Source: an uncultured Rhodospirillales bacterium
GTDB lineage: Bacteria > Pseudomonadota > Alphaproteobacteria > CAZRBL01
Assembly: GCA_964598335.1 (NCBI GenBank)
Contig: CAZRBL010000001.1
Span: forward strand, 105,291 to 169,290
Direction: 5' to 3'
Length of the DNA: 64,000 bases
The notes under the pieces were generated by a model. It did not search any database. It saw nothing but the letters and a program-made list of their open reading frames with translations, and was not told where the DNA came from. The position numbers were made by a program, and so were the translations under genes. This document shows, piece after piece, positions 10,969-53,727 of this stretch. The stretch's first letter is position 1, and each line of letters starts with the position of its first letter.

Positions 10969-11040
10969 ATCGGACCCTAACGCGCGGCGGCGCGGGGCTC
11001 AATGCTTGATTGGCGCTCGCGCGCCGGGCCTTGGCCCCTT

Positions 11041-11074
11041 ACCGAGGGGAGGCGGGGCGGAGGTGAGGGGCGGA
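11041..11074. repeat. GC-rich intergenic repeat, half-copy B
   Basis: ggaggcggggcggaggtgaggggcggaccggcc matches the right arm (gcggggcgggggtgaggggcggaccggcc) of the palindromic element at 23521..23613. Confidence 0.5.
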
Positions 11075-11107
11075 CCGGCCAAAACAAAAAAAGGCGCCGC
11101 AGCGTCT

Positions 11108-11144
11108 TTAAAAAATGAGGGGCTTCTGTTGCCCGGTGCCCCTC
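11108..11144 (-). terminator. Rho-independent terminator of ssrA
   Basis: On the minus strand: GAGGGGC-(14 nt loop)-GCCCCTC followed by ATTTTTTAAAG. Confidence 0.65.
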
Positions 11145-11445
11145 GGACCGCGCCTAAGCCATGCAAGCGGCCTAGGAGTTGAATTCGAAGCTACCGAGCT
11201 GCTTAAGCAGCCAGGCGGGCCTCAGCGTAGTTGTCGTTGGCAACTATCAAAACGGCCCGATAACGGTGGTACCATGCCGGGCAAAAACTGCATCTTTCAG
11301 CCCACGTCGATCCTGTTTCGCCCCCACCAAAAGCACCCTGTCGCTGCCCGTCTCAGAATGCTCTTGGTGGAGGCGCCGGGTACTGCCCCCGGGTCCGTAA
11401 AGCCTATTGCATACAGCGTTTATCGCCATAGCCGGGTGCTACCCG
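11112..11445 (-). ncRNA. ssrA: tmRNA (SsrA), circularly permuted two-piece type
   Basis: The minus strand carries the tag reading frame GCC AAC GAC AAC TAC GCT GAG GCC CGC CTG GCT GCT TAA at complement(11203..11241), encoding ANDNYAEARLAA. The coding-piece 5' end GGGGGCGAAACAGGAUCGACG is at complement(~11325). An acceptor piece ending GGCGCCUCCACCA-3' is at complement(11365..) with a T-arm-like CCGGG-GGCAGUA-CCCGG; acceptor-stem G3:U70 is consistent with alanine identity. The CCA-containing piece lies 5' of the GGGG piece, which is the permuted arrangement. Promoter and terminator are identified. The ORFs 11115..11474, 11179..11400 and 11247..11429 in the track are non-coding. Confidence 0.75.
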
Positions 11446-11453
11446 ACAACACC

Positions 11454-11482
11454 AATATATCGCGGAATCGTTAAGGATCAAA
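11454..11482 (-). promoter_or_regulatory. Sigma-70-type promoter for ssrA
   Basis: Minus strand TTGATC-(17 nt)-TATATT. The predicted TSS near 11447 coincides with the inferred start of the tmRNA precursor. Confidence 0.45.
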
Positions 11483-21229: not shown

Positions 21230-21433
21230 GGTAATCCCCTTAATCGGTAAGCCTCCCGCGTTTCCCCTAGACAAGGCCTTAAGCCGATCTTACTTGCTGC
21301 GCTTGGCCGGGTCGATTGCATACAGCGACGGATAGAGCGCGAAGCAGAGGCCGACCCCGCCGATTAACCGAACGGATTGTTCCGAACCGGCGCACAAAGC
21401 CGGATGTCGGCCTGTCAGGGAGATATGAGACGG

Positions 21434-23509
21434 ATGAGTTCTGCTGCGCAACCCAGCTATCGTCTTGGCGTCGATGTCGGCGGCACCTTTACCGATTTGC
21501 TGCTGATCGATGAAAGCAACGGCCACACCTTCACCGCCAAGGTCCCCTCGACGCCGGCCGACAGCTCGATCGGCGTGATGAACGGGATCGAGAAAATCTG
21601 CCAGACGGCGGGAATCGATCCGGGCCACATCTCTTATGTGATGCACGGCACCACGGTCGCGACCAACACGGTGCTGACCGAGCGCGGCGCCAAGGTCGGG
21701 CTGATCGTCACCAAGGGTTATCACCACATTCTGCAGATCGCGCGGTCCTTCGTGCCGGGCGGCCTAGGCGGCTGGGTGATCTATAACAAGCGCCCGCCGC
21801 TGGCGCCGCTGGAGCTGACCATCGAAGCGCATGAGCGGATGGACGCCCAGGGCAACACCGTCGAGGCCCTCGATGAGGCGGCGCTGCGCAAGGAGCTGCA
21901 AGTCCTCAAGGATGAAGGCGTCGAGGCTGTGACCGTGTCACTGATCAACGCCTATACCAATGGCGCGCATGAACAGGCCGTGCGCAAGGTTGTCGAGGAA
22001 GAAATGCCCGGCGTCCCGGTCTCGCTGTCCAGCGAAGTCATCCCCGAGATGATGGAATATGAGCGCGCCGAAACCACCGTGGTGAACAGCTATGTCCGCC
22101 CGGTCGTCTCGAAATACATCAACAATCTGACCCACCAGCTCGAGCAGAAAATGGGCGGCGTCAAGCTGTCCATCCTGCGCTCCGACGGCGGTCTCGCCGG
22201 CGCCGACAATGCCAAGGATGCGCCGGTCAATCTGCTGCTGTCCGGCCCGGCCGGCGGTGTCGCAGGCGCGATGTGGATGGTCGGCCAGGCGGGCTACAAG
22301 AATTTGCTGACCTTCGATATGGGCGGCACCTCGACCGATGTGGCGTTGATCCAGGACGGGGTTGCGCAAAAACGGCGCGAGACCCGCGTCGGCGACGTCA
22401 CCGTGCGCGCCAGCTCGATCGATGTGCGGACCGTCGGGGCCGGCGGCGGCTCGATCGCCTATGTGCCCGAGCTGACCAAGGCGCTGCGCGTCGGCCCGCA
22501 AAGCGCCGGCGCCGATCCCGGCCCGGCCGCCTATATGAAGGGCGGCGAGGAGCCGACGGTGACCGACGCCAATGTCGTGCTGGGCTATCTGCCGGCCGAT
22601 GCCAAGCTGGGCGGCGATATGAAGATCGACCGCGGGCTGGCCGAAAAAGCCGTGCAAAAGGTCGCCGATGCGCTGGGCCTGTCGCTGATGGAAGCGGCCG
22701 AGGGCATCATCCGCATCGTCAATGAAAACATGTTCGGCGCGCTGCGCCTGGTTTCGGTCGAGCAGGGCTATGACCCGCGCGATTTCGCGCTGGTCGGCTT
22801 TGGCGGCGCCGGGCCGCTGCATGCCAATGCGCTGGGCATCCTGTCCGGCGCCTGGCCGGTGATCGTGCCGCCGGGGCCGGGCGTGCTGTGTGCCCGCGGC
22901 GATGCCACCACCCGGATCCGCGACGAAGCCTCACGCACCTTTGTCAGCCGTGTCGGCAATACCAGCGATGCCGAGGTTCTGAGCATGCTCGAAGAGCTGG
23001 AGGCCCAGGCGCGCAAGACGCTGAGCGCCGATGACATTGCCGAGGCCGATCAGGAAATCGAATATGAAGTCGATATGCGCTATGCCGGTCAGGCGCTGAA
23101 GATCACCATCACGATCTCGCCCGAAGACTTCAAATCCGGCGGTCTGGCCAAGATCGGCAAGGATTTCGACGCGCAGCACGAGCAGCTCTTCACCTTTGCG
23201 CTGGATGCAGAGCATGAGCTGGTCAATCTGCGCGCCGTGGCGATGGGCAAGGCGACCAGCGTCAAGGCCGAAACCCTGCCGCAGACCGATGGCGACATCT
23301 CGGGCGCCGTCATTCACGAGCACAAAGTGTTCTATGACGGCAAGGAATGGCCGTGTAACATCTATGACCGCGGCAAGCTCAAGGCCGGTGATAAAATCGA
23401 GGGCGCGGCGATTGTTTCGGAAATGGATTCGACGACATTGATCCTTCCGGGTTACGTTGCCGAGATCGAGCCCTATGGCAACATGCTGATCAACCCGATT
23501 AAAGGTTAA
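21434..23509 (+). CDS. hyuA: Hydantoinase / oxoprolinase family, A (HyuA) subunit
   Basis: N-terminal LGVDVGGTFTD hydantoinase_A signature. ~690 aa. ATG at 21434 (21425 is also possible). Confidence 0.85.
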   Translation: MSSAAQPSYRLGVDVGGTFTDLLLIDESNGHTFTAKVPSTPADSSIGVMNGIEKICQTAGIDPGHISYVMHGTTVATNTVLTERGAKVGLIVTKGYHHILQIARSFVPGGLGGWVIYNKRPPLAPLELTIEAHERMDAQGNTVEALDEAALRKELQVLKDEGVEAVTVSLINAYTNGAHEQAVRKVVEEEMPGVPVSLSSEVIPEMMEYERAETTVVNSYVRPVVSKYINNLTHQLEQKMGGVKLSILRSDGGLAGADNAKDAPVNLLLSGPAGGVAGAMWMVGQAGYKNLLTFDMGGTSTDVALIQDGVAQKRRETRVGDVTVRASSIDVRTVGAGGGSIAYVPELTKALRVGPQSAGADPGPAAYMKGGEEPTVTDANVVLGYLPADAKLGGDMKIDRGLAEKAVQKVADALGLSLMEAAEGIIRIVNENMFGALRLVSVEQGYDPRDFALVGFGGAGPLHANALGILSGAWPVIVPPGPGVLCARGDATTRIRDEASRTFVSRVGNTSDAEVLSMLEELEAQARKTLSADDIAEADQEIEYEVDMRYAGQALKITITISPEDFKSGGLAKIGKDFDAQHEQLFTFALDAEHELVNLRAVAMGKATSVKAETLPQTDGDISGAVIHEHKVFYDGKEWPCNIYDRGKLKAGDKIEGAAIVSEMDSTTLILPGYVAEIEPYGNMLINPIKG

Positions 23510-23520
23510 GAGTTAGACAC

Positions 23521-23613
23521 CGGTCCGCCCCTCACCCCCGCCCCGCCTCCCCTCTACAGGATACTTGCAGGGGAAGCGGGGCGGGGGTGAGGGGCGGACC
23601 GGCCCCGACGCCA
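23521..23613. repeat. GC-rich palindromic intergenic element (REP-like), copy C
   Basis: 25-bp perfect inverted repeat cggtccgcccctcacccccgccccgc / gcggggcgggggtgaggggcggaccg flanking cccctctacaggatacttgcagggg. Sits between hyuA and hyuB. Confidence 0.65.
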
Positions 23614-23627
23614 GGAGGCTAGAAGAA

Positions 23628-25520
23628 ATGCCAGCCAAGCTTATTCAGACCAACGACACCCCCTTCGCCAAGGTCGACGTTGATCCGGTCACGCTCGACA
23701 TTATCGAAAACGCGCTGCGCAACACGCGGACAGAAATGGACGCGGTGCTGTTCCGGACGGCGATGAGCCCCGGCATCCGCGAACAGGGCGATGCCTTTCC
23801 GATGATCGCCAATCAGGACGGCAAGATGGTCGTCGGCCAGTTCGGCAGCTTCATCCACGGCTTCACCCAGGCCTATGACGGCACGATCGAGGAAGGCGAC
23901 ATCTTCCTGACCAATGATCCCTATTCCTGCGCCGGCGCCATCAGCCACCTCAATGACTGGCTGACCATCAAGCCGATTTTCCGCAATGGCCGCCTGGTCG
24001 GCTGGGCCGCGATGTTCGGCCATTTGACCGATGTCGGCGGCAAGGTGCCGGGCAGCCTGCCGGTCGATGCGCACCAGATTTTCGAGGAAGGCATCCAGAT
24101 TCCGCCGACCAAGATCGTCAAGGGCGGCGAGATGAATCAGGAAGTCCTCGATCTGATCCTGCGCAATTGCCGCATGCCGCAATGGAACAAATCGGATTTC
24201 AACGCCATCCTGGCCGGTTTGCGCCTCGCCCAGCGCCGCATTGACGAGATGTGCGACCGCTTCGGCGATGACGTCTATGTCGAAGCCATGGAGCTGATGC
24301 TGCAGCGGAACTATGATGCGATGAAGGAAATCATCGCCATGGTGGTGCCGACCGAAAAGCGGACCTTCGAGGATTATATCGACGATGACGGCGTCGGCAT
24401 GGGCCCCTACAAGGTGTCCTGCACGATGTGGCGCGAGGGCGACAAGGCGATCTTCGATTTCGCCGGCACCGACCCGCAATCGATGAGCTCGGTGAACTTC
24501 TACCTCAATGAGGAGATGTTCAAGATGTTCCTCGGCGCCTTCACCATCAATCTGTTCGACCCGCAGATCCTGTTCAATGACGGGTTCTACGATCTGGTCG
24601 ATGTCCGCATCCCCGAAGGCACCATCCTCAAGCCGCGCCGCCCCGCCGCGCTGTCCTGCCGGACCCATATGCTGGGCCGGATTTTCGACATCATGGGCGG
24701 CCTGCTGGGTCAGGGGAATCCGGACGCGCTGAACGCCGCCGGTTTCTCCGACAGCCCGCACTTCATGTATTCCGGCTATTACCGCGACAGCGGCGAGTGG
24801 TACCAGCTCTATCAGATCGGCTTTGGCGGCATTCCCGGTCGGCCGGGTGGCGACGGCCCCGACGGGCACAGCCTGTGGCCGAGCTTCAAGAACGTGCCGA
24901 ATGAGCACCTCGAAGCCTATTTCCCGCTGCGCATCAGCACCTATGAAACCATCGCCGATAGCGGCGGCGCCGGCCTGCACCGCGGCGGCAATGGCGTGCG
25001 CATGGGCTATACCTTCCTCGAGCCCGGCGAGATCAGCATCCATGACGACCGCTGGCTGACCCATCCCTGGGGCGTCAATGGCGGCCACCCGGGCAAGCGC
25101 TCGGAAAAGATCATGGTCCGCGCCGATGGCAGCGAGGAGAAATTCCCCTCGAAAATGGACCATGTGAAGGTCGAACCCGGCGACACGCTGTATTTCAACA
25201 CCTGGGGCGGCGGCGGCTGGGGCGACCCGCTTGAGCGTCCGGCCGAACAGGTCGCCCTCGATGTCCGCCGCAAGCTGGTCACCCAGGAAGGCGCCAAGCG
25301 CTATGGCGTCGTCGTCCGTGACGATTTCACCGTCGACGAGCCGGCCACGGCGGCTCTGCGCGAGCGCATCAGAAGCGAACGCGGCGAGCTGCCGCTCTTC
25401 GACCGCGGCGGCACCGTCGAGGAACTCAAGGCCCGCTGCAAAGCAGAAACCGGCTTCGAGCCCCCCAAGACCCCCGTCTTCCAAAGCTTCCACCAGCCGG
25501 TGGCCGAAGCCGCTGAGTAG
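23628..25520 (+). CDS. hyuB: Hydantoinase / oxoprolinase family, B (HyuB) subunit
   Basis: ATG at 23628 preceded by AGGAGG. Hydantoinase_B-like throughout. ~630 aa. Confidence 0.85.
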   Translation: MPAKLIQTNDTPFAKVDVDPVTLDIIENALRNTRTEMDAVLFRTAMSPGIREQGDAFPMIANQDGKMVVGQFGSFIHGFTQAYDGTIEEGDIFLTNDPYSCAGAISHLNDWLTIKPIFRNGRLVGWAAMFGHLTDVGGKVPGSLPVDAHQIFEEGIQIPPTKIVKGGEMNQEVLDLILRNCRMPQWNKSDFNAILAGLRLAQRRIDEMCDRFGDDVYVEAMELMLQRNYDAMKEIIAMVVPTEKRTFEDYIDDDGVGMGPYKVSCTMWREGDKAIFDFAGTDPQSMSSVNFYLNEEMFKMFLGAFTINLFDPQILFNDGFYDLVDVRIPEGTILKPRRPAALSCRTHMLGRIFDIMGGLLGQGNPDALNAAGFSDSPHFMYSGYYRDSGEWYQLYQIGFGGIPGRPGGDGPDGHSLWPSFKNVPNEHLEAYFPLRISTYETIADSGGAGLHRGGNGVRMGYTFLEPGEISIHDDRWLTHPWGVNGGHPGKRSEKIMVRADGSEEKFPSKMDHVKVEPGDTLYFNTWGGGGWGDPLERPAEQVALDVRRKLVTQEGAKRYGVVVRDDFTVDEPATAALRERIRSERGELPLFDRGGTVEELKARCKAETGFEPPKTPVFQSFHQPVAEAAE

Positions 25521-25540
25521 GCCGCAACACTTCCGACATC

Positions 25541-25575
25541 AAAAAGGCGGGGCCAGTCCCCGCCTTTTTTGTTTT
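25541..25575. terminator. Bidirectional rho-independent terminator
   Basis: aaaaaGGCGGGGccagtCCCCGCCttttttt. An A-run and a T-run flank a 7-bp GC stem. It can terminate both hyuB (+) and the KAP NTPase gene (-). Confidence 0.7.
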
Positions 25576-25592
25576 GGAGATGCTGCGTGACC

Positions 25593-26933
25593 TCAATCCG
25601 AAGTCACGAACATACTCATGCGCTGTGCAACGGTGCGAGGTGGCTCAGCGCCACCAAATTCGGGTTCTTCAAAAAGCCCTTGCATAGCTATGTCATCGTC
25701 TTCATTCAGCGGCTTGTCGCCCAATGCAGCCCGCCACCAACGGCAGATATGACTTACCCTGCCACCTTGATCCATTACCGGGAGAGGGATTGCCTTGTGA
25801 AATTGCTCCCACGACAATTCGTCATTCGCACATTGTAGGAACAAAGCTGGCTCCCGAAGCGATAGGCAGGCGGTGCCAATAATTATTGGTGGTGCTGATC
25901 GGATGCCATTGCCACACGAAAGAACGTAAAGGCGAGACAGTTGAGCCACACGCTCCATTTCTCTGAGTGAGAGGTCAAGCAAGGCGGAGAATTTTTCTAA
26001 GCTCCACGGAAATGAGTCTCTGCCAAATTGTCGTGATTTTGTTTCATTCTCGTAGGTGTTTTCAAAAAGGTATTTTGAAAAAAGTCGGTGCTTATTTCTA
26101 TCTCTTTTTCCTAGGGATTGTCCGATATTAAACTTGAAGTCTACGTATTTTTCTAAATAGCTTCGGTGCTCGTAAAGGTGGTTGATAGAACGATCAAAAA
26201 AATCTGTATTACAGCCGATGATAATTTTAATTTCTTTTGTAGAAAATATATGTTTGCAACATTGAAGTATATCTAGGGCAAATTTTGTGTCGCAGCGGTC
26301 TAGCTCGTCGATGATGACTATGATTTTTTGGTCTTCTTTTTTTAGCTCGCTTAAGCTGTTTTTGAATTCATCGAGTGCGGATTCTTTCTGCGAATATGCC
26401 TCAATGCTACGGACGAATAGAGTTCGTTCAGGGTTGGGGTCGTCAGTACGGGCCTTGTTGATAGCGTCGAAAACTGCATCTACATCTTCACGCTGAATTT
26501 GGCCAAGGGTCGCCGCACTCACGCCCACAGCCAAAGCAGCACTGCCTGCGGCGCTTGCTAGCCGACCGGCCTTTTTCAGGAATTCGCCACGAGCATTAGC
26601 CTTGTCTGAAGCAAGGCCTCGTTCGTCCAGATGCGCAAGCAGTTTCCCACATAATGCGACAAAAGCATTATTGTGAAAATCCAGTTCTGATGCATCGAAG
26701 TATAGACAATCAATGCCTTTCGCTCGTTTGATAAGGCGCCGTAAGAAAATGGTCTTCCCGGAACCCCAAGCTCCTTCTACAGCACAAACGATTGGATCTT
26801 CAGCGCGAGCCAAGAGGTTTATTAAGGCGTCAGCGCGGGGGTTGTCGCCAAAGATGTCGGCGGCGTCGGAAAAGTCATCAAAGGGTGGTGGTTTCAGACG
26901 GAGTTTCCTGTCGTCTTCTTCTGTCTCATCCAT
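25593..26933 (-). CDS. KAP-family P-loop NTPase (PifA-like), horizontally acquired
   Basis: KAP hallmarks are present. Walker A is GAWGSGKT. Walker B is IIVIIDELDRC. The N-terminus is KAP-like (DIFGDNPRADALINLL). The body of the gene is ~38-50% GC in a ~65% GC background. The start is chosen at MDETEEDD (26933). The 61 upstream codons of the track ORF overlap a GC-rich nested-IR element and read as Pro-rich low complexity. Confidence 0.8.
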   Translation of the reverse strand: MDETEEDDRKLRLKPPPFDDFSDAADIFGDNPRADALINLLARAEDPIVCAVEGAWGSGKTIFLRRLIKRAKGIDCLYFDASELDFHNNAFVALCGKLLAHLDERGLASDKANARGEFLKKAGRLASAAGSAALAVGVSAATLGQIQREDVDAVFDAINKARTDDPNPERTLFVRSIEAYSQKESALDEFKNSLSELKKEDQKIIVIIDELDRCDTKFALDILQCCKHIFSTKEIKIIIGCNTDFFDRSINHLYEHRSYLEKYVDFKFNIGQSLGKRDRNKHRLFSKYLFENTYENETKSRQFGRDSFPWSLEKFSALLDLSLREMERVAQLSRLYVLSCGNGIRSAPPIIIGTACLSLREPALFLQCANDELSWEQFHKAIPLPVMDQGGRVSHICRWWRAALGDKPLNEDDDIAMQGLFEEPEFGGAEPPRTVAQRMSMFVTSD

Positions 26934-26940
26934 TGGTTGA

Positions 26941-27095
26941 GTTTCGGTCAGGGCTTGAGTCGGCGCAAGCCCGTTTCTCGTCATTGCGAGGAGCGGTGTC
27001 GGAGACACCGGCGACGCGGCAATCCAGAGATATTGCCCGCCCGGCACCGGTCCTGGATTGCCGCGCCGGCTTTGCCGGCTCGCAATGACGGTTGG
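26941..27095. repeat. Structured nested inverted-repeat element
   Basis: gggcttg/caagccc hairpin. Outer 12-bp IR cgtcattgcgag / ctcgcaatgacg (26978..27090). It encloses cggtgtc-gga-gacaccg, the 12-bp IR gcggcaatccag / ctggattgccgc, and gccggc-ttt-gccggc. Confidence 0.55.
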
Positions 27096-27159
27096 CGGCA
27101 AAGGGGAGTGAGGCAAAAAGGGTGCAGTCCATCGAGGCGATAGCGCCGTAAATCCTCAC

Positions 27160-27552
27160 ATGACTGATACACCCACCGACCGCCCCACCGTCTTCTATAA
27201 CGGCGCCTGCCCGATCTGTTCGGCTGAGATTGCGCATTATCGGGCCTTGCCCAATGATCTCGACTGGGTCGATGTCCGGGCCGAACCCGACCGGGCAGCG
27301 CCGTGGCTGGATGCGGACAGCGCCATCCGGCGGCTGCATACGCTGACCGTGGATGGCCGGCTGCTGGCCGGGGTCGATGCGTTCATCGCCATGTGGGAAC
27401 GGATTCCGCGCTATCGGCTGGCGGCGAAAATCGTCCGCCTGCCGGTGATCCGGCAGATCGGCATTGCGGTCTATGAGGGCGTGCTGGCGCCGCTGCTCTA
27501 TCGCTGGAACAAACGCCGCGAGGCGCGGGCCGGCATGCATGGTGCCGGCTGA
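27160..27552 (+). CDS. DCC-family thiol-disulfide oxidoreductase (DUF393)
   Basis: N-terminal FYNGACPICSAEIAHY with a CxxC motif. ~130 aa. The -strand ORF 26926..27633 is its shadow. Confidence 0.7.
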   Translation: MTDTPTDRPTVFYNGACPICSAEIAHYRALPNDLDWVDVRAEPDRAAPWLDADSAIRRLHTLTVDGRLLAGVDAFIAMWERIPRYRLAAKIVRLPVIRQIGIAVYEGVLAPLLYRWNKRREARAGMHGAG

Positions 27553-27675: not shown

Positions 27676-29118
27676 TCAGGCGGCTTTCTCGGTCGGCGGC
27701 GTTGTCATCCGGCTCTGGCTTGCCGCCAGGACGCGTTGCTGCGGAAACAGCAGCGTTGCGGTCGTGCCGGTGCCGACGCTGCTTTCCAGGATCAGAGAGC
27801 CGTCATGCTTCTCCATCCAGGCTTTGACCAGCGCCAGACCGAGACCGGTACCCTCCGCGGCCCGATCATGGCCCTGGGAGACCTGATAGAACGGTTCGGT
27901 CACCTTGTTGAGCTGCGATTGGTCGATGCCGATGCCCTGATCGGCGACGCTCAGCCACAGCCCGTCCTGTTTGCATTCCGCCTCCAGCGTGATGCGCGCG
28001 CCCGCCGGCGAAAACTTGCTGGCATTGGTCAGCAGGTTGAGCAGCATCTGCCTGAGCAGTTTTTCGTCGGCCAGAATGGTCGCCTCGATGCCGTCGACAT
28101 GTAACGTCTGGTCGACGCTTTGCAGCCTCGGCCGGATCATGCGGGTGATTTCGTCAATGATATCGGCGATCGCCACATGGCTTTCGTCCAGCTCTACCGT
28201 ACCGGATTCGATCCGGCCGATATCGATAATGTCATCGACCAGCGCCAGCAGATGCCTGCCGCCCTTGTGAATGTCTTCGGCATAGTCGCGATAATCCTTG
28301 ATGCCGATCGGGCCCGCGGCCTCACTGCGGATCAGGTCTGAAAAGCCGATGACGGCATTCAGCGGCGTCCGCAATTCATGGCTCATCGTCATCAGGAAAC
28401 GGGATTTCGCGGCGCTGCCGGCCTCGGCTTCCTGCAAGGCGCGTTGCAGTTTCGCGGCCAATGCCTCGCTTTCCAGGGCTTTCAGGCGGGCGCCGATGAA
28501 ATTCTTGCGATAGATAAAGGAGTAACGGGCGAGGACCAGACCGAAAATGACCACGCCGACGGCGCCGATCCAGCCATAGGATCCGGCCTGCAGGAAGATC
28601 GCCGTTGCCAGCCCGGTCAGCGACAGCGAGATGAAACTCCAGCTCGTCGGCAGGTGCCCGGCATTGGCGACCAGCGCGCCGCCGCACAATGCGGTGATGA
28701 AAAACGCCATGATCAGGCTCGCTTCCGGATAGGCGCTGTCGATGAAAAAGACCGCGCTGAGGCCGACCGTCAGGCCGCTCATGATCGATGACAGCAGATA
28801 AAGCCGGTTCCAGATCGGAGCGGGCCTGTCCGGGGTGAAACGACGTCGATAGGCGATCAGGAGGCCGACACGGAACAAGGCAACGCACAGCCCGATGACG
28901 ATCAGGGCGGCGATGGCGCCGCGCGGTGCATCGGTGGTGAGCGCCAGCCCGGCAATGATGAGATTGTTGGCCAGCACGCCGATCAGCGACATTGGCAGAT
29001 TATCGTACAGCCAAATGATCAGCGACGCCTCAAGTGCGGTCGAACGCGAGGCGGCGCTGTCGATGATCGACTTATGCTGTGCTGCCGTCAGAGCCATTTC
29101 CCGATCAGCTTTAGCCAT
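27676..29118 (-). CDS. Membrane sensor histidine kinase
   Basis: Multi-TM N-terminus. HisKA H-box (MSHELRTPLNAV). HATPase_c N, G1 and G2 boxes (NLLTNASKF, DQGIGI, GTGLGL). Confidence 0.85.
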   Translation of the reverse strand: MAKADREMALTAAQHKSIIDSAASRSTALEASLIIWLYDNLPMSLIGVLANNLIIAGLALTTDAPRGAIAALIVIGLCVALFRVGLLIAYRRRFTPDRPAPIWNRLYLLSSIMSGLTVGLSAVFFIDSAYPEASLIMAFFITALCGGALVANAGHLPTSWSFISLSLTGLATAIFLQAGSYGWIGAVGVVIFGLVLARYSFIYRKNFIGARLKALESEALAAKLQRALQEAEAGSAAKSRFLMTMSHELRTPLNAVIGFSDLIRSEAAGPIGIKDYRDYAEDIHKGGRHLLALVDDIIDIGRIESGTVELDESHVAIADIIDEITRMIRPRLQSVDQTLHVDGIEATILADEKLLRQMLLNLLTNASKFSPAGARITLEAECKQDGLWLSVADQGIGIDQSQLNKVTEPFYQVSQGHDRAAEGTGLGLALVKAWMEKHDGSLILESSVGTGTTATLLFPQQRVLAASQSRMTTPPTEKAA

Positions 29119-35259: not shown

Positions 35260-38142
35260 TTACCGACCGACCTGTTCGAGCAAGGCTTCGGCTTCGCCGC
35301 GGCGCGAGAAATCCTGTTCCGTATCGATCAGCGAGACCAGAATATCACGCGCCTCGTCCCGCTTGCCGGTCATGAACAGACCATAGGCGAGGTGATAGGC
35401 CATATCGCCGTTTTCCGGCCGGGCCCGCGTCGCGGCTTCGACCAGCCGGATACCTTCATTGAACTGGCCGTTGCGGATCAGCAGCCAGCCGACGGTGTCC
35501 GCGATTTCGGGCGAGTTCGGCGCCAATTGCAGGGCCCGTCGGGCCATGACGATAGCGCGGTCATATTCTTCCTGTTCGCCCAGGATCCAGGCGAGATTGT
35601 TCAGGGAAATGGCATCATTGGGGGCGGCGTCGATGATCCGCTCGTAAAGTTCGGCCGCCTCACCGAGATTGCCGCGGTTCAGCAGGAAGGAAGACAGGAC
35701 CCTTTTGGCATTGTCGTCCTGAGGGTTTGCAACGACCCAATCGGTCAGGCTTTCCGCAGCCTCGGATTCCTGGCCATCCTCGCGCAGCGCGTTGAATATG
35801 GTCAGCGCGATTTCGGTGCTTTGCAGCTCGGCATTGGCCCGGCGCAGATAGGTGACGGCCTCATCCAGTTGATCCTGGCGGACGAAGACACGTGAGCGCA
35901 CCAGCGCGCCGCCGACCGGATCGGCTTCGCCAAGCCGCTCCGCCACCGCGATTGCCTCTGCCTCTTCATCATTCTCGATGGCAAGGTCGACCAGGGCGAT
36001 GGCAACCTGACGGTTTTCGGGCTGAAGATCTCGGGCGCGCAGCAGCCATTCACGGCCCTGCTCGCGATTGCCGTTGACGAAATGCGCGCGCGCCAAGGTG
36101 ATCACCGGGTCGACATCGTCGGGCCTGAGCTCCGTCAGCTGCTCCAGCGCCTCAAGCCCGAGCTCGGCTTCCCCTGCATCGACCAGCAGGCGGCCGGAAA
36201 GATCGAGGATGACGGCTTTTTGCTCATCGCTTTCCGCGGTGTCGACCAGTGCATAAAGTTCTCGGGCGATGCGGGCGGCGTCTTCATCGCGGTCCTGCTC
36301 GACATAGAAGCGGGCCAGGGTTGCCTTGAGGCGCGGTGAATCGGGGATCTCGGTGATCTTGGTTTCAAGCAGCTGCGCGGCCTGTTCCGCGCCGTCCTCG
36401 ATGTCGTCGCGGCTGGCCAGGAAACGGGCGGTTCCCAGCACGATGGCTTCGTTATTCGGGGCGCGTTCCATCGCCTCGAACAGGGTTTCCTGCGCCGCAT
36501 CCGGGCCGTCGATCCGGCTGACGACGCGGGCAAGACCCTGCAGGGCAGGCAGGAAATCGGGGTTATCGCGCAGGATGCTGTCATAAGTATCGCGTGCGGC
36601 GGGCAGATCTTCGCGCACCAGCGCAACCTCGGCCTGCAGGGTACGCAGCAGGACATTATCGGGCGAATTGGCCAGTTCGCGATCAAGTGCTTCCTGCGCT
36701 TCTTCGATCTGGCCCGCTTCGATGAAATCCTGCACCAGCAGAATGGTCGCCGCCACCGGGTCGGCTTCCTCAGCCGCCGCGCCGCCGCCGCCGGTCGCGC
36801 CGCCCATCGCATTATTGATCAGCGCAAGCCGGCGGGCCGCTTGCTGCGAGGCCCGGGCGCTGGGCTGTTGCCGGATACGCTCGTAATATTCCGCAGCCTT
36901 GGCGATATCGCCCTGGCGCGTATAGGCGCTGGCAAGGCGCCTGAGCGTGCCGATATCGTCCGGCTCACGGCGCAGGATCGGCTCCAAGACCTCTATCGCG
37001 CCGATCTGATCGTCGCGACGGAGATAGGTGTCGGCCAGCAAATGCTGCGCGGCGATATTGTTCGGGTTGCGGGCGACATAGGAGGCCAGCAAATCTTCAG
37101 CCAGCGCATAGCGTTCGGTGTTGATGCGGATAATGCCGCCGAGCAGCAGCGCCGGCTCGAAATTGCGCAGCGTGTCCTCGATCTGGGTGAATTCGCGGTC
37201 CGCTTCCTCGAACCGCCCTTCCTGGATCAGAATGGTGATATTGGTGTAGCGCGCATCGATGTTATCGGGATTGGCGGCGATGGCTTCATCGATCGTCGCG
37301 CGTGCCTCTTCAAGATCGCCGGTGCGCAATGACAGGCGCGCCTTGCGGGCCAGAACGGCGGCATTGTCCGGCGAGATTTCGAGTGCCTGATCGAGCGCCA
37401 ACAACGCATCGCCGGGCCGGTTGAGGTCGGTCAGCAATTCGGCGCGGGCAAGCCATGCCTGCAGATTGCTGGGATCGATATCGAGCGCGGAATAGATGTG
37501 CTCGAGCGCTTCTTCCTTGTCGTCCTGCGCATTGGCGACGCGCGCCAGCGCGATATAGGCCTGGCTGGCGCGCGGGTTGAGCTCCAGGGCGCGGGTATAT
37601 TGCGCCCGCGCTTCATCGAGTTGCTCAAGGCCGAAATGGGCGTTGCCCAGAAGCTGCGCCTTGACCACTTCCAGCTCTTCGGTTTCCGCCGCGGGATCGA
37701 CGACGGAGAGCACGTCTTCAAAATTGCTTTCGCGTTGAGAGGGGTCAGGCGCGCTGAGAAGTGCGCGGGCGAGCAGGATCTGGTGCGCGTCCGAGGGCTC
37801 CATTTGATAGAGTTCCTCGGCAAGCTCCTGACGCCTCAGCGCCCGCTGGCCGAACAGCCTGAGCGATTGCGGGGTGAGATAAAGCTCAGTCAGCAGCCGC
37901 TGGGCCTCGACCAGGTCGGGATCGCGATCGAGCGCGTTCCGAAGCTGGATTTCGGCCGCCAGCGGGTCGTTGTCCTCAAGCCGCTCACGCGCATCTTCGA
38001 GGAATTGCTGCCCGGTTTCCTGCGCTCTTGCGCCTGTCGGCTCGGCAATGACGGCGACCAGCGCCAGTGTGAGTGCCAGCGTTCCCAGACGAAAGGCCGG
38101 GCCCAGATCGATAATCATGGTTTTCAAGACAGACCCCATGGT
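35260..38142 (-). CDS. prsT: PEP-CTERM-system TPR-repeat protein, PrsT-like (secreted)
   Basis: ~960 aa of tandem TPR repeats behind a signal peptide (LALTLALVAVIAEPTGARAQ). Immediately downstream of prsR in an XrtA locus. Confidence 0.6.
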   Translation of the reverse strand, partial: TMGSVLKTMIIDLGPAFRLGTLALTLALVAVIAEPTGARAQETGQQFLEDARERLEDNDPLAAEIQLRNALDRDPDLVEAQRLLTELYLTPQSLRLFGQRALRRQELAEELYQMEPSDAHQILLARALLSAPDPSQRESNFEDVLSVVDPAAETEELEVVKAQLLGNAHFGLEQLDEARAQYTRALELNPRASQAYIALARVANAQDDKEEALEHIYSALDIDPSNLQAWLARAELLTDLNRPGDALLALDQALEISPDNAAVLARKARLSLRTGDLEEARATIDEAIAANPDNIDARYTNITILIQEGRFEEADREFTQIEDTLRNFEPALLLGGIIRINTERYALAEDLLASYVARNPNNIAAQHLLADTYLRRDDQIGAIEVLEPILRREPDDIGTLRRLASAYTRQGDIAKAAEYYERIRQQPSARASQQAARRLALINNAMGGATGGGGAAAEEADPVAATILLVQDFIEAGQIEEAQEALDRELANSPDNVLLRTLQAEVALVREDLPAARDTYDSILRDNPDFLPALQGLARVVSRIDGPDAAQETLFEAMERAPNNEAIVLGTARFLASRDDIEDGAEQAAQLLETKITEIPDSPRLKATLARFYVEQDRDEDAARIARELYALVDTAESDEQKAVILDLSGRLLVDAGEAELGLEALEQLTELRPDDVDPVITLARAHFVNGNREQGREWLLRARDLQPENRQVAIALVDLAIENDEEAEAIAVAERLGEADPVGGALVRSRVFVRQDQLDEAVTYLRRANAELQSTEIALTIFNALREDGQESEAAESLTDWVVANPQDDNAKRVLSSFLLNRGNLGEAAELYERIIDAAPNDAISLNNLAWILGEQEEYDRAIVMARRALQLAPNSPEIADTVGWLLIRNGQFNEGIRLVEAATRARPENGDMAYHLAYGLFMTGKRDEARDILVSLIDTEQDFSRRGEAEALLEQVGR

Positions 38143-38334
38143 TTGGCTGCTCCTATCCCGCAAGCAGTAATTCAGGTTGCCAAAGATGTCCCCAAGACCG
38201 CCCACATCCAAGCGTTTCCGATTCATGACTATCGGGGAAATCCTTGTCGGATCATGAATAGGCGTTGGTTTCGGCGGTTTTGTGGCATAGCGCGACGGCC
38301 ATTTCCAGCCCGCCGGAAATCCGTCGATATTGCT

Positions 38335-39744
38335 TCAGGCAGGCTGTTCGCTGCGAAGGCCGTGCTGGTTCATGAGATTATAGACGGTCGGACGGCTGAC
38401 ATCGAGGATGCGGGCGACCTCGGTCAGGTTGCCGCCGGTCGCCGCGAGCAGATCGATCAGCGCTTCTTTCTCCGCGCGGGTGCGGATTTCCTTCAGCGTC
38501 AGATAGCTGCCGCCATTGACCGCGTCCGGCTCGCTGATGTCGGCGCCGTTGACCGTGCAGGTGGTCGTTTCGCTCGTCGGCAGGTTCAAGTCATCGGCCG
38601 TGATAAACGGCCCGTCGGCAAGCACCAAGGCACGCTTCACCTTGTTCTCAAGCTCGCGGACATTGCCCGGCCAGCGATAGTCGCGGATCGCTGAAATCGC
38701 CTCGCCGCTCAGCTTCGGTACTTTTTTGCCGTTGTCGCTGGCCCAGCCGTCAATGAAATAGCTGGCCAGGATCACCGCGTCGTCTTCGCGGTCACGCAGC
38801 GGCGGGATATCGACCGATATGGTGCTCAGCCGGTAGAACAAATCCTCGCGAAAGGCTTGTTCGGCAATGCGGTTCTGCAAATCCTGATTGGTTGCTGCCA
38901 TCACGCGCACATCGACCGGGATCGAATTTCGGCCGCCGACACGCTCGATGATACGCTCCTCGAGGAAACGCAACAGCTTGGCCTGCAGGCTGATCGGCAT
39001 GTCGCCGATCTCATCCAGAAACAGGGTGCCGCCGCTGGCGGTTTCGACCTTGCCCTTTACCTGCCGATGGGCGCCGGTGAACGCGCCCTTTTCATGACCG
39101 AACAACTCTGATTCCAGGAGGTTTTCCGGGATCGCCGCGCAGTTGATGGCGACGAAGGGCTGATCATGGCGCGGGCTGGCGCGATGCACGGCGCGGGCCA
39201 GCACCTCCTTGCCGGTACCGCTCTCGCCCAGCAGCAGCACATTCATATCCGTCGGCGCGACCTTCTCGATCGTGCGGCAGACCTTCAGCATTGCGGCGCT
39301 GGCCGAAATCACCCCGGCCAGCGGCGTTTTCATGGTCTGTTTCAGGCGCCGGTTCTCGCCTTCCAGCTCGGTAAGCTGAAAAGCACGACCGACAATCAGG
39401 CTCAGCACATCGGCATCGATCGGCTTGTGATAAAAATCATAGGCGCCGAGCCCGACCGCTTCGACAGCATTCTCGCGCTCATCCTGGCCGGTGACGACGA
39501 TGACCTTTGTACGCGGGGCCATGGTGAGGATTTCGGCAAGGGCCTCAAGGCCCTCGCGCGGGCTGTCCGGATCGGGCGGCAGGCCCAGATCAAGCGTGAC
39601 CACCGGCGGACGGTAATCCCGCACGGCCTGGATTGCTTCGCCCCGATCCGAAGCGGTGATGACATCAAAATTGTCAAAGGACCAGCGCAATGTACGCAGG
39701 ATGCCGGGGTCGTCGTCGACCAGAAGCAATTTCGGCTTGCTCAT
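38335..39744 (-). CDS. prsR: Sigma-54-dependent response regulator, PEP-CTERM-box regulator PrsR
   Basis: Receiver domain (LLVDDD...D...K). AAA+ sigma54-activation domain (GESGTGKE, GAFTGA, LFLDEIG). C-terminal Fis-type HTH. Confidence 0.85.
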   Translation of the reverse strand: MSKPKLLLVDDDPGILRTLRWSFDNFDVITASDRGEAIQAVRDYRPPVVTLDLGLPPDPDSPREGLEALAEILTMAPRTKVIVVTGQDERENAVEAVGLGAYDFYHKPIDADVLSLIVGRAFQLTELEGENRRLKQTMKTPLAGVISASAAMLKVCRTIEKVAPTDMNVLLLGESGTGKEVLARAVHRASPRHDQPFVAINCAAIPENLLESELFGHEKGAFTGAHRQVKGKVETASGGTLFLDEIGDMPISLQAKLLRFLEERIIERVGGRNSIPVDVRVMAATNQDLQNRIAEQAFREDLFYRLSTISVDIPPLRDREDDAVILASYFIDGWASDNGKKVPKLSGEAISAIRDYRWPGNVRELENKVKRALVLADGPFITADDLNLPTSETTTCTVNGADISEPDAVNGGSYLTLKEIRTRAEKEALIDLLAATGGNLTEVARILDVSRPTVYNLMNQHGLRSEQPA

Positions 39745-39903
39745 GAGCGCAAACTAGCCATTGCCCCCATTAACGCAAGCTAGCGAAAGTTGTGTTTGGT
39801 ATTTTGTCCGCGTCGGGGACCCGCCCGCCCCCGCCGTCCCATCTGAATGCTTTCATGGGTCGGCGCAGGCGAGCGGGCGGTATCTTGGCCGAAGCCCTGA
39901 AGC

Positions 39904-40506
39904 TTAGCTCGCTTCGTTCATCCGCTGCGTGACGAATTCCCAATCGACCAGTTTGTCGAGGAAGGCTTCGACATAATCCGGGCGCATATTGCGATAGTCG
40001 AGATAATAGGAGTGCTCCCAGACATCGCAGCCCAGCAACGCCGTTTGACCGTGCGCCAGCGGATTTTCCGCATTGGGTGTCTTGGTTACCTTGAGCTGGC
40101 CGTTATCGATCACCAGCCAGCACCAGCCGCTGCCGAACTGGCTGACCCCGGCTTTGACAAATTCGGATTTGAACGCATCGACGCTGCCGAAATCGCTCTT
40201 GATGCGGTTTTCCAGTTCTCCGGGCATGGCACCGCCGCCATTCGGCTTCATCCATTTCCAGAACAGGATATGATTCCAGTGCTGGCCGGCATTGTTGAAA
40301 ATGCCCTGTTGATCCGCCTTGCCGAAGGACCCTTTGACAATGGTCTCAAGATCCTTGCCCTCATATTCCGTGCCTTTGATCAGATCGTTCAGTGTATCGA
40401 CATATTTCTTGTGATGTTTGCCGTGGTGCAACTGCAGCGTCTCCTCCCCCATGACCGGGGCAAGCGCATTATGGGCGTAGGGAAGCGGCTCAAGATCAAA
40501 GGCCAT
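39904..40506 (-). CDS. sodB: Fe/Mn superoxide dismutase
   Basis: HHGKHH N-terminal motif. DVWEHSYY metal-ligand motif. 200 aa. Confidence 0.9.
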   Translation of the reverse strand: MAFDLEPLPYAHNALAPVMGEETLQLHHGKHHKKYVDTLNDLIKGTEYEGKDLETIVKGSFGKADQQGIFNNAGQHWNHILFWKWMKPNGGGAMPGELENRIKSDFGSVDAFKSEFVKAGVSQFGSGWCWLVIDNGQLKVTKTPNAENPLAHGQTALLGCDVWEHSYYLDYRNMRPDYVEAFLDKLVDWEFVTQRMNEAS

Positions 40507-40869
40507 GGTGAGGGTCTCCTATCGTTCTGGGAAAGACGTGTTTGGGTATGAGTGCAACGGGGTTGACTTGGTGACGTTCCGTAGCGCTTTGAAGCCGGGG
40601 GCGCGTCACGGTCGTCATCCGTTTTTGCCTTGCGCGGCGGTCGGCGCTCGGGCTGATTGCTGCCGCGGGGTCGAGCGGGGCTGGGGTGCAGGGGGACCGG
40701 AATAGTCCGAAAATGCTACAGATCATCGATCCTGACGAACGCGATCCCGCAATTCTTGCGGCGGTCGAGAAGAGCATTCCGAACTTTTTCACCGCCGAAA
40801 CACCTTGGGAAGGCCACCTCAATGGATGGCGGCAATACGCACGAGAACGGCAGCCTGTGACGCGCTGAC

Positions 40870-51374: not shown

Positions 51375-51623
51375 GGCTCAAGGTCCTTGCGGAGGCCGAC
51401 ATGCTGCGCTGCGAGAGGTCGACAGGCACATGCTTACTGTCAACCGCGCCCGCCGTGCAACTTCACCAATTCGCAATATGAAATGCCTTATTTTGGCAGC
51501 GCAGAGCAGGGTTGCGGCATTGAGTTGTTTGCCGCGTCCCGCGACGGCTACCGATATGCTACGTCGCCGTCGCCCTCGGTGCGATGGTGCGGTATTCACG
51601 CCTGCTGTTTCGTGGAAGGACGG

Positions 51624-53638: not shown

Positions 53639-53727
53639 GGATTGCGTTTCAAGGAGAAAATCGACCCCGGTATGTGCCGGCTTCGGGGATAGCCGGACAA
53701 AGCCGATGAGAGGGCGGGTGACGGGCC

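What the first reader, a model, noticed from the sequence alone, without database searches (positions are those of the whole stretch)
25541..27095. AT-rich ~1.4 kb islet carrying a solitary KAP-family P-loop NTPase (PifA-like): candidate single-gene defence / abortive-infection module
There is a sharp compositional break: 25.86-26.50 kb is ~38-40% GC in a ~65% GC genome. It contains one gene whose product carries the KAP NTPase signatures (GAWGSGKT Walker A, IIDELDRC Walker B, KAP-type N-terminus). KAP NTPases are sporadically distributed and horizontally mobile in prokaryotes. The founding bacterial example, F-plasmid PifA, is a single-gene abortive-infection determinant against T7. This copy is wedged between hyuB and a DCC oxidoreductase. 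A bidirectional terminator bounds it on one side and a nested inverted-repeat element on the other. No integrase or transposase is present. That pattern fits a small defence islet better than a prophage. Its partners and trigger, if any, are unknown.
Basis: partly seen in the sequence, partly recalled or inferred. Interest (0 to 1): 0.7.

Follow-up and report, generated by a model that had tools for sequence, protein, structure and literature searches.

The report
Foreign single-gene KAP ATPase islet
A single horizontally acquired gene for a short KAP-family ATPase sits alone in an AT-rich patch of an otherwise ordinary alphaproteobacterial chromosome; it belongs to a widespread, untested candidate anti-phage family that usually rides in prophage defence hotspots, so it is a credible but unremarkable defence candidate.

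Summary
Positions 25860-26500 are 40.9% GC, the lowest stretch of that length in a 61.8% GC window. The gene at 25593-26933 (minus strand, 446 aa) has 47% GC and 45% GC3, against 69-84% GC3 in 14 other genes. It is an intact KAP_NTPase (Pfam E 2e-28) with Walker A and Walker B motifs. A palindromic terminator bounds it on one side and a 112-nt nested inverted-repeat element on the other. No mobility or defence gene lies within about 8 kb.

In IMG/VR the relatives are lone genes at prophage accessory positions: between cI and integrase, beside portal and terminase, and beside antiterminator Q. In 40 of 40 representative loci they are AT-richer than their flanks, and no partner gene is conserved.

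This copy is a singleton, at most 34% identical to anything in the 15-billion-protein collection searched. No genome close enough exists to test the empty site. A defence role is inferred, not shown. Verdict: a new member of a known candidate kind, of modest interest.

The parts
25541..25569 (.). Palindromic G+C-rich hairpin (AAAAAGGCGGGG-CCAGT-CCCCGCCTTTTT) with an A-run and a T-run. It lies between the convergent hyuB gene (stop at 25520) and the KAP gene (stop codon at 25593-25595). It is a likely bidirectional intrinsic terminator and marks the left edge of the islet.
   Evidence: Terminator scan: 12-pair stem, 7 GC pairs. Inverted repeat I1. Local GC of 25521-25592 is 56.9%, intermediate between islet and background.
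25593..26933 (-). Gene for a 446-aa short KAP-family P-loop NTPase without a transmembrane helix (PADLOC PDC-S20 / phrog_8614 type). It is compositionally foreign over its whole length.
   Evidence: Pfam PF07693 E 2e-28. PADLOC PDC-S20 E 2.2e-52. phrog_8614 E 3.4e-48. GC 47.1% and GC3 44.7% against 69-84% in other genes. Identical to the protein on record, P0001. AF2 model with pLDDT 84, pTM 0.81.
26751..26774 (-). Walker A motif (P-loop), GAWGSGKT, residues 54-61.
   Evidence: Read directly from the sequence. G57, G59 and K60 are invariant in 61 family members.
26292..26324 (-). Walker B and KAP signature, IIVIIDELDRC, residues 204-214.
   Evidence: Read directly from the sequence. D209, E210, D212 and R213 are invariant in 61 family members.
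25861..26501 (.). The most AT-rich core of the gene (40.9% GC), covering roughly codons 145-358. It reflects low GC at all three codon positions and is not a recombination mosaic.
   Evidence: Minimum of all 641-nt windows in the 64 kb. Sliding codon-position GC. GC3 heterogeneity along the gene is not significant, p = 0.42.
26934..26978 (-). Short 5' leader of the KAP gene. It has no Shine-Dalgarno-like motif and contains a small hairpin at 26951-26972.
   Evidence: Sequence read. Hairpin listed by the scan and present in the fold.
26979..27090 (.). A 112-nt G+C-rich (67.9%) nested inverted-repeat element resembling a REP or MITE. It has 12-nt perfect terminal arms (CGTCATTGCGAG / CTCGCAATGACG) and an inner 16-nt pair. 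It forms the right edge of the islet, lies in the divergent KAP-DCC intergenic region, and has native-like composition.
   Evidence: Inverted repeats I3 and I11. The fold of the 191-nt stretch around it has z -4.7. GC. Single copy in the window. No Rfam family. Only a 48-nt partial match in the plasmid collection.

Best explanation
The islet is one horizontally acquired gene. It encodes a cytoplasmic, short (446 aa) KAP-family P-loop NTPase of the PADLOC PDC-S20 / phrog_8614 type and most likely acts as a stand-alone anti-phage determinant.

Shown here:
- The gene is foreign by composition.
- It is intact and keeps every invariant catalytic residue of its family.
- It has no conserved partner gene.
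- Its relatives sit as single cargo genes in prophage, phage-plasmid and plasmid accessory or defence hotspots.

Inferred:
- The protein assembles into an ATP-dependent oligomer, as its closest solved relative RdrA does.
- Its C-terminal alpha-helical domain (about residues 277-440) senses or engages a phage component.
- ATP binding and hydrolysis through K60 and D209/E210 drive the step that blocks phage replication.

Whether the cell dies (abortive infection, as with PifA) or survives (as reported for EF_KAP) is open. The gene probably arrived as cargo of a mobile element whose other parts have been lost, or by illegitimate recombination between the hyuB terminator and a resident inverted-repeat element. 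Expression may be weak or silenced in this host.
For: Foreign origin. GC3 is 44.7% against 69-84% in other genes, and z is -7.8. The protein is a singleton at 90% identity among about 15 billion proteins and is at most 34% identical to any representative.

Family. Pfam KAP_NTPase E 2e-28. PDC-S20 E 2.2e-52 over 76% of the profile. phrog_8614 E 3.4e-48. 8541 representatives match at E<=1e-3, and the 150 best listed are mostly 430-480 aa.

Integrity. All 13 invariant columns of a 61-member alignment are retained, including Walker A, Walker B and R324.

Single-gene status. Across 40 IMG/VR clusters (70% identity), no neighbour family is shared by more than 6.

Hotspot contexts.
- Between cI and integrase of P2/186-like prophages, beside portal and terminase, beside antiterminator Q, and beside integrases.
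- A cI-integrase hotspot of a Vibrio P2-related phage is described as a defence hotspot by Rousset et al. 2022 (PMC9122126).
- A phage-plasmid, next to a Dam methylase.
- Next to a PifA-like KAP gene with integrase and transposase.
- Next to a PLD-SNF2 helicase and an Eco57I-like gene.
- Next to HicAB in a phage-like contig.

Family-wide AT-richness. The gene is AT-richer than its flanks in 40 of 40 loci, by a median of 14 points.

Precedent. Single KAP NTPase proteins protect E. faecalis from phages in a Walker-B-dependent way (PMC13552941).
Against: - I found no experimental test of any PDC-S20 or phrog_8614 member. The string "PDC-S20" occurs in no paper of the library.
- The validated KAP defences differ in architecture. 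PifA (720-position model), QatA (593- and 646-position models), RdrA (about 800 aa) and EF_KAP (322-aa C-terminal region) are much larger, and EF_KAP and Tmn have transmembrane helices. QatA and RdrA also work with partner proteins.
- This copy departs from the family at near-invariant positions: P216T, E224Q, F82S, F237I, F263Y, and a missing Gly after Y254.
- It has no Shine-Dalgarno motif, and a strongly folding element lies upstream.
- It is not in a defence island.
- With no close homologue, purifying selection cannot be measured.
- No effector domain is recognisable.
Confidence: 0.55

Rival explanations
1. The gene is a stranded remnant: a cargo ("moron") gene left behind by a prophage, satellite or plasmid that has since been deleted. 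In this host it is silent or drifting and does nothing useful, whatever its ancestors did.
For: - No mobility gene, attachment site or flanking repeat survives. The only flanking direct repeat is an 8-mer, and about 0.7 such matches are expected by chance.
- The gene has no Shine-Dalgarno motif and a structured element lies upstream.
- Six departures from near-invariant family residues.
- GC3 is still 32 points below that of the host genes, so there has been little amelioration.
- From general knowledge, AT-rich foreign DNA is typically silenced in alphaproteobacteria by MucR/Ros-type proteins. This was not tested here.
Against: The ORF is intact over 446 codons despite an AT-rich sequence in which stop codons arise easily. 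All 13 invariant residues are kept. The AF2 model is confident.
Confidence: 0.22
2. The protein is a KAP NTPase with a cellular role unrelated to phage, for example NTP-dependent assembly or disassembly of a host protein complex. That is the general role proposed for the KAP family.
For: The general KAP hypothesis, attributed to Aravind et al. 2004, is quoted in bioRxiv 2022.08.21.504612. [quoted passage not shown] No effector domain is recognisable in this protein.
Against: The gene is foreign by codon usage and unique to this strain. The family is concentrated in prophages and plasmids at accessory positions and has no stable genomic partner. These are not the features of a housekeeping factor.
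Confidence: 0.1
3. The gene serves the mobile element rather than the host, for example in superinfection exclusion, element maintenance or addiction, or an anti-defence role. Here it is merely displaced from its element.
For: phrog_8614 is a phage protein family of unknown function. 296 relatives were found in viral contigs. Homologues sit next to repressor, integrase, ParA and HicAB modules.
Against: Positions between cI and integrase or beside the portal gene are where prophages carry defence cargo (PMC9122126). Exclusion of competing phages amounts to defence from the host's viewpoint, so this rival overlaps with the best explanation. Anti-defence proteins are usually small, and this one is 446 aa.
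Confidence: 0.08
4. The gene is native with unusual composition, or it is one half of a two-gene unit with the adjacent DCC oxidoreductase or histidine kinase.
For: The gene is divergently arranged with the DCC gene and they share a 226-nt intergenic region.
Against: DCC and the histidine kinase have native composition (GC3 0.78 each) while the KAP gene has 0.45. Neither has a PADLOC hit. No DCC or kinase partner recurs among the 40 representative homologue loci. GC3, rather than amino-acid composition, carries most of the deficit.
Confidence: 0.03

Closest known systems
PADLOC phage-defence candidate PDC-S20 (single-gene candidate, PADLOC-DB v2.0.0) and the phage protein family phrog_8614
   Same: Near full-length HMM matches (E 2.2e-52 and 3.4e-48). 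Same length class of about 450 aa. Same architecture: a KAP NTPase domain plus a short helical C-terminal domain. Encoded as a single gene. AT-rich relative to its surroundings.
   Different: This copy is very divergent, at most 34% identical to any representative, and departs at six near-invariant positions. It sits in a plain chromosomal metabolic neighbourhood rather than in a prophage, plasmid or defence island. I found no published experimental test of the family.
RdrA, the ATPase of the RADAR anti-phage system (PDB 8fnt, 8fnu, 8hr8)
   Different: RdrA is about 800-900 aa and, from my own knowledge, works with the adenosine deaminase RdrB. Here the protein is 446 aa and there is no RdrB-like neighbour. 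Sequence identity is only 13-14%.
PifA of the F plasmid (T7 exclusion, abortive infection)
   Same: KAP-family P-loop core. A single protein is sufficient for phage exclusion.
   Different: The PifA model matches only over profile positions 19-253 of 720, at E 3e-10. The protein is about 60% of PifA's length and is not on an F-like plasmid. PifA's membrane association and its triggering by T7 gp1.2 and gp10 come from my own knowledge and have no counterpart that can be tested here.
EF_KAP and three metagenomic KAP NTPase defence proteins (PLoS Biol 2026, PMC13552941)
   Same: Single-gene KAP NTPase proteins shown to protect against phages. The Walker B motif is required, and a C-terminal region of unknown fold is required.
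   Different: EF_KAP has two predicted transmembrane helices and a 322-aa C-terminal region. The protein here has no convincing transmembrane segment: maximum 19-residue hydropathy is 1.59, in a low-confidence helical tip. Only about 115 residues lie beyond the Pfam domain.
QatA of the QatABCD system, and Tmn (a transmembrane YobI/KAP-type NTPase)
   Same: Both are P-loop NTPases of the KAP type used in phage defence. QatA models match the core (PADLOC E 1.2e-13, NCBIfam E 3.4e-13).
   Different: The NCBIfam QatA equivalog scores 49 bits against a cutoff of 600, and there are no QatBCD neighbours. Tmn is membrane-anchored by helices inserted into the NTPase domain and is reported to act by Mg2+ export and plasmolysis (abstract of PMC13001434). 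This protein lacks such helices.

Membership tests
KAP family P-loop NTPase (Pfam PF07693) | Match to the family HMM above the curated gathering score | tested here: met
   100 bits against a cutoff of 20, E 2e-28, profile positions 4-284 of 293.
KAP family P-loop NTPase (Pfam PF07693) | Intact Walker A (GxxGxGKT/S) and Walker B (hhhhDE-LDR) motifs | tested here: met
   GAWGSGKT at residues 54-61 and IIDELDRC at residues 207-214, read directly. These positions are invariant in a 61-member alignment.
KAP family P-loop NTPase (Pfam PF07693) | Transmembrane helices inserted into the NTPase domain between Walker A and Walker B. This is typical of the family as described, which cites Aravind et al. 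2004. | tested here: not met
   A helical insert is present at about residues 107-196. Its most hydrophobic 19-residue window scores only 1.59 (Kyte-Doolittle), is rich in Ala, Gly and Ser, and coincides with the low-confidence tip of the AF2 model. The protein is treated as a soluble KAP variant. No dedicated transmembrane predictor was available.
PADLOC PDC-S20 (candidate single-gene defence) | Near full-length match to a PDC-S20 HMM | tested here: met
   PDLC04959: E 2.2e-52, residues 88-444 of the 507-aa ORF against profile positions 20-371 of 464. Three further PDC-S20 models match at E 1.7e-42 to 3.8e-19. PADLOC's own per-model thresholds were not available.
PADLOC PDC-S20 (candidate single-gene defence) | Stand-alone gene with no obligatory partner | tested here: met
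   No PADLOC hit among 9 neighbouring genes between 17 and 34 kb. No neighbour family is shared by more than 6 of 40 homologue clusters.
PADLOC PDC-S20 (candidate single-gene defence) | Demonstrated protection against phage | not testable with these tools
   No publication mentioning PDC-S20 was found. This needs a phage challenge.
PifA (F-plasmid T7 exclusion protein) | Full-length homology to PifA (the PADLOC model has 720 positions) | tested here: not met
   The PADLOC PifA model matches at E 3.2e-10, covering only profile positions 19-253 of 720. The protein is 446 aa.
PifA (F-plasmid T7 exclusion protein) | Abortive infection triggered by T7-like phage proteins | not testable with these tools
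   Requires an infection experiment.
QatA (Qat anti-phage system ATPase) | NCBIfam equivalog score above cutoff, and QatB/C/D encoded alongside | tested here: not met
   NF041923 scores 49.1 bits against a cutoff of 600. The neighbours are hyuB, a DCC oxidoreductase and a histidine kinase.
RdrA (RADAR) | An ATPase of about 800-900 aa paired with the adenosine deaminase RdrB | tested here: not met
Integron gene cassette | An ORF followed by an attC site with R''/R' core sites, in an array and/or with an integron integrase | tested here: not met
   The only inverted-repeat element lies 5' of the ORF. Its flanks (…GCCAAC | element | AGAAAC…) do not fit RYYYAAC / GTTRRRY when read directly. There is no second such element in the window. 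No integrase was found.

The most novel reading that the evidence does not exclude
Short KAP NTPases of the PDC-S20 / phrog_8614 type, which lack transmembrane helices, may be a complete one-protein immune system with no recognisable effector domain. In that case the ATPase oligomer itself would be the weapon, for example by trapping or remodelling a phage protein or nucleic acid. This highly divergent alphaproteobacterial copy would then extend the family into a lineage and a chromosomal setting where it works without any mobile-element context.
Probability: 0.4. Interest if true: 0.5.

Novelty: new member of a known kind. Interest (0 to 1): 0.3.

Why it matters
If the gene does protect against phage, it would be a compact (1.3 kb), partner-free KAP ATPase defence from a poorly sampled alphaproteobacterial lineage. 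It would also be a convenient minimal model for how KAP NTPases, including PifA, QatA, RdrA and Tmn, turn ATP hydrolysis into immunity.

The wider family counts thousands of representatives. It is consistently AT-rich relative to its hosts and sits in prophage hotspots, yet I found no published experiment on it. The family is therefore a better target for experiments than this single copy. For genome annotation, the practical result is a corrected gene start, with the spurious 61-codon N-terminal extension removed.

Tried and rejected
1. Orthologous empty-site test. The genome-contig scan with HyuB gave at best 78% identity, and none of the 80 loci carried DCC, the histidine kinase or a KAP gene downstream. 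The nearest HyuB anywhere (P0030, 88%) lies on a contig that shares only hyuAB with the window; both flanks differ, and so does the sequence immediately after the stop codon. The histidine-kinase neighbour has no orthologue: the best hit is 49% identical over half its length. The only other contig carrying the gene (L001) is 100% identical over 7825 nt, so it is the same strain. The test is not feasible with current data.

2. A conserved partner gene. A 137-aa ORF lies just upstream of the homologue on two plasmids, but the two ORFs are unrelated and have no PADLOC hit.

3. A recombination mosaic within the gene. GC3 does not vary significantly along it (chi-square p = 0.42). The deep dip comes from GC1 and GC2 as well.

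4. Target-site duplication or flanking repeats. Only an 8-mer (CAAAAAGG at 25540 and 27114) was found, and about 0.7 such matches are expected by chance.

5. Integron cassette or attC reading of the inverted-repeat element. Rejected; see the membership test.

6. Rfam identity for the inverted-repeat element or the terminator. Nothing scored near a gathering threshold.

7. The inverted-repeat element as a widespread plasmid-borne MITE. Only one 48-nt partial match was found, in Novosphingobium. It is single copy in the window.

8. The 507-aa TTG ORF as the true protein. Rejected, because its first 61 codons translate the inverted-repeat element.

9. A transmembrane KAP protein. Hydropathy analysis and the AF2 model do not support a membrane helix.

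10. Sequence search of the PDB with the family profile. Nothing below E 0.01.

11. Foldseek against viral structures (BFVD). Only a generic KAP hit and clamp-loader hits, all with TM-scores of 0.48 or lower.

12. The first AF2 model, from a 21-sequence alignment, was poor (pLDDT 65). It was replaced by the 61-sequence model.

13. A second KAP copy in the window. None found.
Full report

Yes. The window averages 61.8% GC. The lowest 300-nt window is 34.7% at 26000-26299. The only 1-kb bin under 56% is 26001-27000, at 46.1%. Background GC is about 62%, not about 65%.

The dip coincides with one gene on the minus strand, 25593-26933, encoding 446 aa. Its GC is 47.1% and its GC3 is 44.7%. Fourteen other genes in the window have GC3 between 69% and 84%. 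Compared with gene-length windows elsewhere in the window, the z-score is -7.8. Most of the deficit is at third codon positions, so it reflects codon usage and not only amino-acid content. GC3 does not vary significantly along the gene (p = 0.42). The gene is therefore uniformly foreign rather than a mosaic. The very deep core also reflects a stretch rich in Lys, Ile, Asn, Phe and Tyr.

**2. Anatomy**

- HyuA (21377-23509) and HyuB (23565/23628-25520) lie on the plus strand.
- Twenty-one bases after the hyuB stop comes a perfect palindromic hairpin flanked by an A-run and a T-run, at 25541-25569. It sits between the convergent hyuB and KAP genes and can plausibly terminate both.
- The KAP stop codon is at 25593-25595 and the start ATG is at 26933.
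- The mechanical ORF list extends the frame to a TTG at 27116 (507 aa). Those 61 extra codons translate a 112-nt G+C-rich element at 26979-27090. The element has perfect 12-nt terminal arms and an inner 16-nt pair. A 191-nt stretch around it folds far better than shuffled sequence (-86.9 kcal/mol, z -4.7).
- The 446-aa form is the protein on record (P0001). Family members align from about residue 11 onward. The extension is spurious.
- The element is single copy in the window and matches no Rfam family. It has only a 48-nt partial match among plasmids. Its 68% GC suggests it is resident DNA and not part of the import.
- Beyond it, transcribed divergently, lies a DCC1-like thiol-disulfide oxidoreductase (27160-27552). 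A histidine kinase follows at 27676-29118.
- No Shine-Dalgarno motif precedes the KAP start.
- No direct repeats bracket the islet beyond an 8-mer that is expected by chance.

**3. What the protein is**

- Pfam gives KAP_NTPase at E 2e-28, 100 bits against a cutoff of 20.
- In PADLOC the best models are the four PDC-S20 models. The best scores E 2.2e-52 over profile positions 20-371 of 464.
- QatA (E 1e-13) and PifA (E 3e-10, positions 19-253 of 720) match only the NTPase core.
- The NCBIfam QatA equivalog scores 49 bits against a cutoff of 600.
- PHROGs gives phrog_8614, of unknown function, at E 3.4e-48 and nearly full length.
- An exhaustive HMMER search of 1.84 billion representatives finds 8541 relatives at E<=1e-3 and 76 at E<=1e-30. 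The 150 best listed are mostly 430-480 aa, and none is more than about 34-36% identical.
- At 90% identity the protein is a singleton among about 15 billion sequences.
- In a 61-member alignment it keeps all 13 invariant residues: G57, G59, K60, F63, D85, D209, E210, D212, R213, K227, Y254, Y259 and R324. It differs at several near-invariant positions: P216T, E224Q, F82S, F237I and F263Y, and it lacks a Gly after Y254.
- The AF2 model built from that alignment is confident (pLDDT 84.3, pTM 0.81). It shows a P-loop alpha/beta core, a long helical insert between Walker A and Walker B (about residues 107-196), and a helical C-terminal domain.
- The most hydrophobic 19-residue window scores 1.59 and lies in the low-confidence tip of the insert. 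I see no membrane helix, unlike classical KAP proteins.

**4. Where relatives live**

A scan of IMG/VR found 296 relatives, of which 80 loci were fetched.

- The median ORF length is 448 aa.
- After clustering at 70% identity (40 clusters), no neighbouring gene family is shared by more than 6 clusters. The family has no conserved partner.
- The neighbours that do recur are phage backbone genes:
  - a cI repressor and CII/Fil on one side and the integrase on the other, in P2/186-like prophages;
  - portal and large terminase;
  - antiterminator Q;
  - integrases.
- Rousset et al. 2022 describe a defence hotspot between cI and integrase of a P2-related Vibrio phage (PMC9122126).
- Plasmid relatives are also PDC-S20 by PADLOC. 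They sit next to a Dam methylase in a Pantoea phage-plasmid. In Burkholderia glumae one sits next to a 999-aa PifA-like KAP gene with an integrase and a transposase.
- The metagenomic relatives P0005 and P0003 sit in a phage-like contig with HicAB and KlcB, and beside a PLD-SNF2 helicase and an Eco57I-like gene.
- In all 40 representative loci the KAP gene has lower GC than its flanks, by a median of 14 points overall and 24 points at GC3.

**5. Local context in the window**

The surroundings are ordinary chromosome:

- a LigT-like phosphoesterase, an aldo-keto reductase, an Fe-S protein and an aldehyde dehydrogenase;
- hyuAB, then [KAP], then DCC and the histidine kinase;
- a flavodoxin-like reductase, an isochorismatase, a TonB-dependent receptor, a hydrolase and LpxR.

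None of nine neighbouring genes has a PADLOC hit. No integrase or transposase was seen. A two-piece tmRNA marks the organism as an alphaproteobacterium.

**6. The insertion test that could not be done**

None of those loci had DCC, the kinase or a KAP gene downstream.
- The closest HyuB in the protein collection is 88% identical. It lies on a contig that shares only hyuAB with the window.
- The kinase has no orthologue anywhere.

The lineage is effectively unsampled. Horizontal origin therefore rests on composition, on singleton status, and on the behaviour of the family.

**7. Mechanism**

Shown: the gene is a foreign, intact, solitary KAP ATPase of a family that travels as single-gene cargo in defence hotspots.

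Inferred: it acts as a stand-alone anti-phage protein that needs ATP binding and hydrolysis. By analogy with RdrA it probably works as an oligomer, with the C-terminal helical domain as sensor or interaction surface.

Precedent exists. KAP NTPase proteins alone protect E. faecalis, they need the Walker B motif and the C-terminal region, and EF_KAP does not act by abortive infection (PMC13552941). PifA, by contrast, is the classical abortive example. The outcome for the cell is therefore open, and no effector domain is recognisable.

Against function in this host are the missing ribosome-binding motif, the structured element upstream, the substitutions at near-invariant positions, and the lack of any way to measure selection.

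I put stand-alone defence at 0.55. The main alternative, a silent stranded remnant of a lost mobile element, is at about 0.22. That alternative concerns current activity, not ancestry.

**8. Comparison, novelty and verdict**

The gene is a member of the PADLOC candidate family PDC-S20 / phrog_8614. It is not a PifA, QatA or RdrA orthologue; each of those fails a tested membership criterion. It resembles them only in the KAP core and, for RdrA, in overall fold.

The finding is a new and unusually divergent member of a known candidate kind, in an unusually bare chromosomal setting. It does not surprise a specialist and does not open a long-standing question. The family as a whole is abundant, consistently AT-rich, hotspot-borne and, as far as I could find, untested. 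It would repay experiments. Interest: 0.3.

Noticed in passing
window 26979-27090: A 112-nt G+C-rich nested inverted-repeat element with perfect 12-nt terminal arms (CGTCATTGCGAG / CTCGCAATGACG); the 191-nt stretch around it folds at z -4.7. It has no Rfam family, is single copy in the window, and creates a spurious 61-codon N-terminal extension of the KAP ORF. It may be a lineage-specific REP- or MITE-like repeat. The rest of the genome could not be searched for further copies.
   Followed up: partly
L086-L165 (IMG/VR loci), KAP ORFs at about 6001-7300 in each: In 40 of 40 representative loci, hosts ranging from 43% to 67% GC, the PDC-S20-type KAP gene is AT-richer than its flanks. The median gap is 14 GC points overall and 24 at third codon positions. 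This is a family-wide compositional signature, and its cause (constant transfer, silencing, or selection) is unexplained.
   Followed up: partly
window 21377-25520 versus L082 7866-11893: The hyuA-hyuB pair is the only segment shared with the closest available relative (82-88% protein identity). Both flanks differ completely, including the sequence directly after the hyuB stop. The hydantoinase operon therefore lies in a rearranged or variable region.
   Followed up: partly
L084 2789-7224 (Burkholderia glumae plasmid pR52p): Two KAP NTPase genes lie in tandem: a 999-aa protein matching the PifA model (E 9e-34), followed 96 nt later by a 446-aa PDC-S20-type protein. A small integrase gene and a transposase flank them. 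This could be a two-KAP module.
   Followed up: no
window 27676-29118 (minus strand): The histidine kinase next to the islet has no homologue above 49% identity in the 5.8-billion-cluster collection, and only over its catalytic half. Its N-terminal membrane sensor region appears unique to this lineage, which shows how poorly sampled the organism is.
   Followed up: no
window 10450-11457: A two-piece (permuted) tmRNA gene with tag peptide ANDNYAEARLAA lies next to sspB. This is typical of alphaproteobacteria. No integrase or island was seen beside it, although tmRNA genes are common integration sites.
   Followed up: no
window 35260-42978 and 49260-55728: A 988-aa TPR protein, a sigma-54 response regulator and a histidine kinase lie in a row, followed further on by polysaccharide genes (a Wzz/GNVR chain-length determinant and an epimerase/GFO fusion). 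The arrangement resembles an exopolysaccharide regulatory cluster. The TPR protein gives a weak PADLOC PDC-M71B hit (E 1.6e-10) that is probably driven by the TPR repeats.
   Followed up: no
window 25540-25547 and 27114-27121: The 8-nt direct repeat CAAAAAGG brackets exactly the terminator, the KAP gene and the inverted-repeat element. About 0.7 such matches are expected by chance for the flanks compared, so it is not evidence of a target-site duplication.
   Followed up: yes
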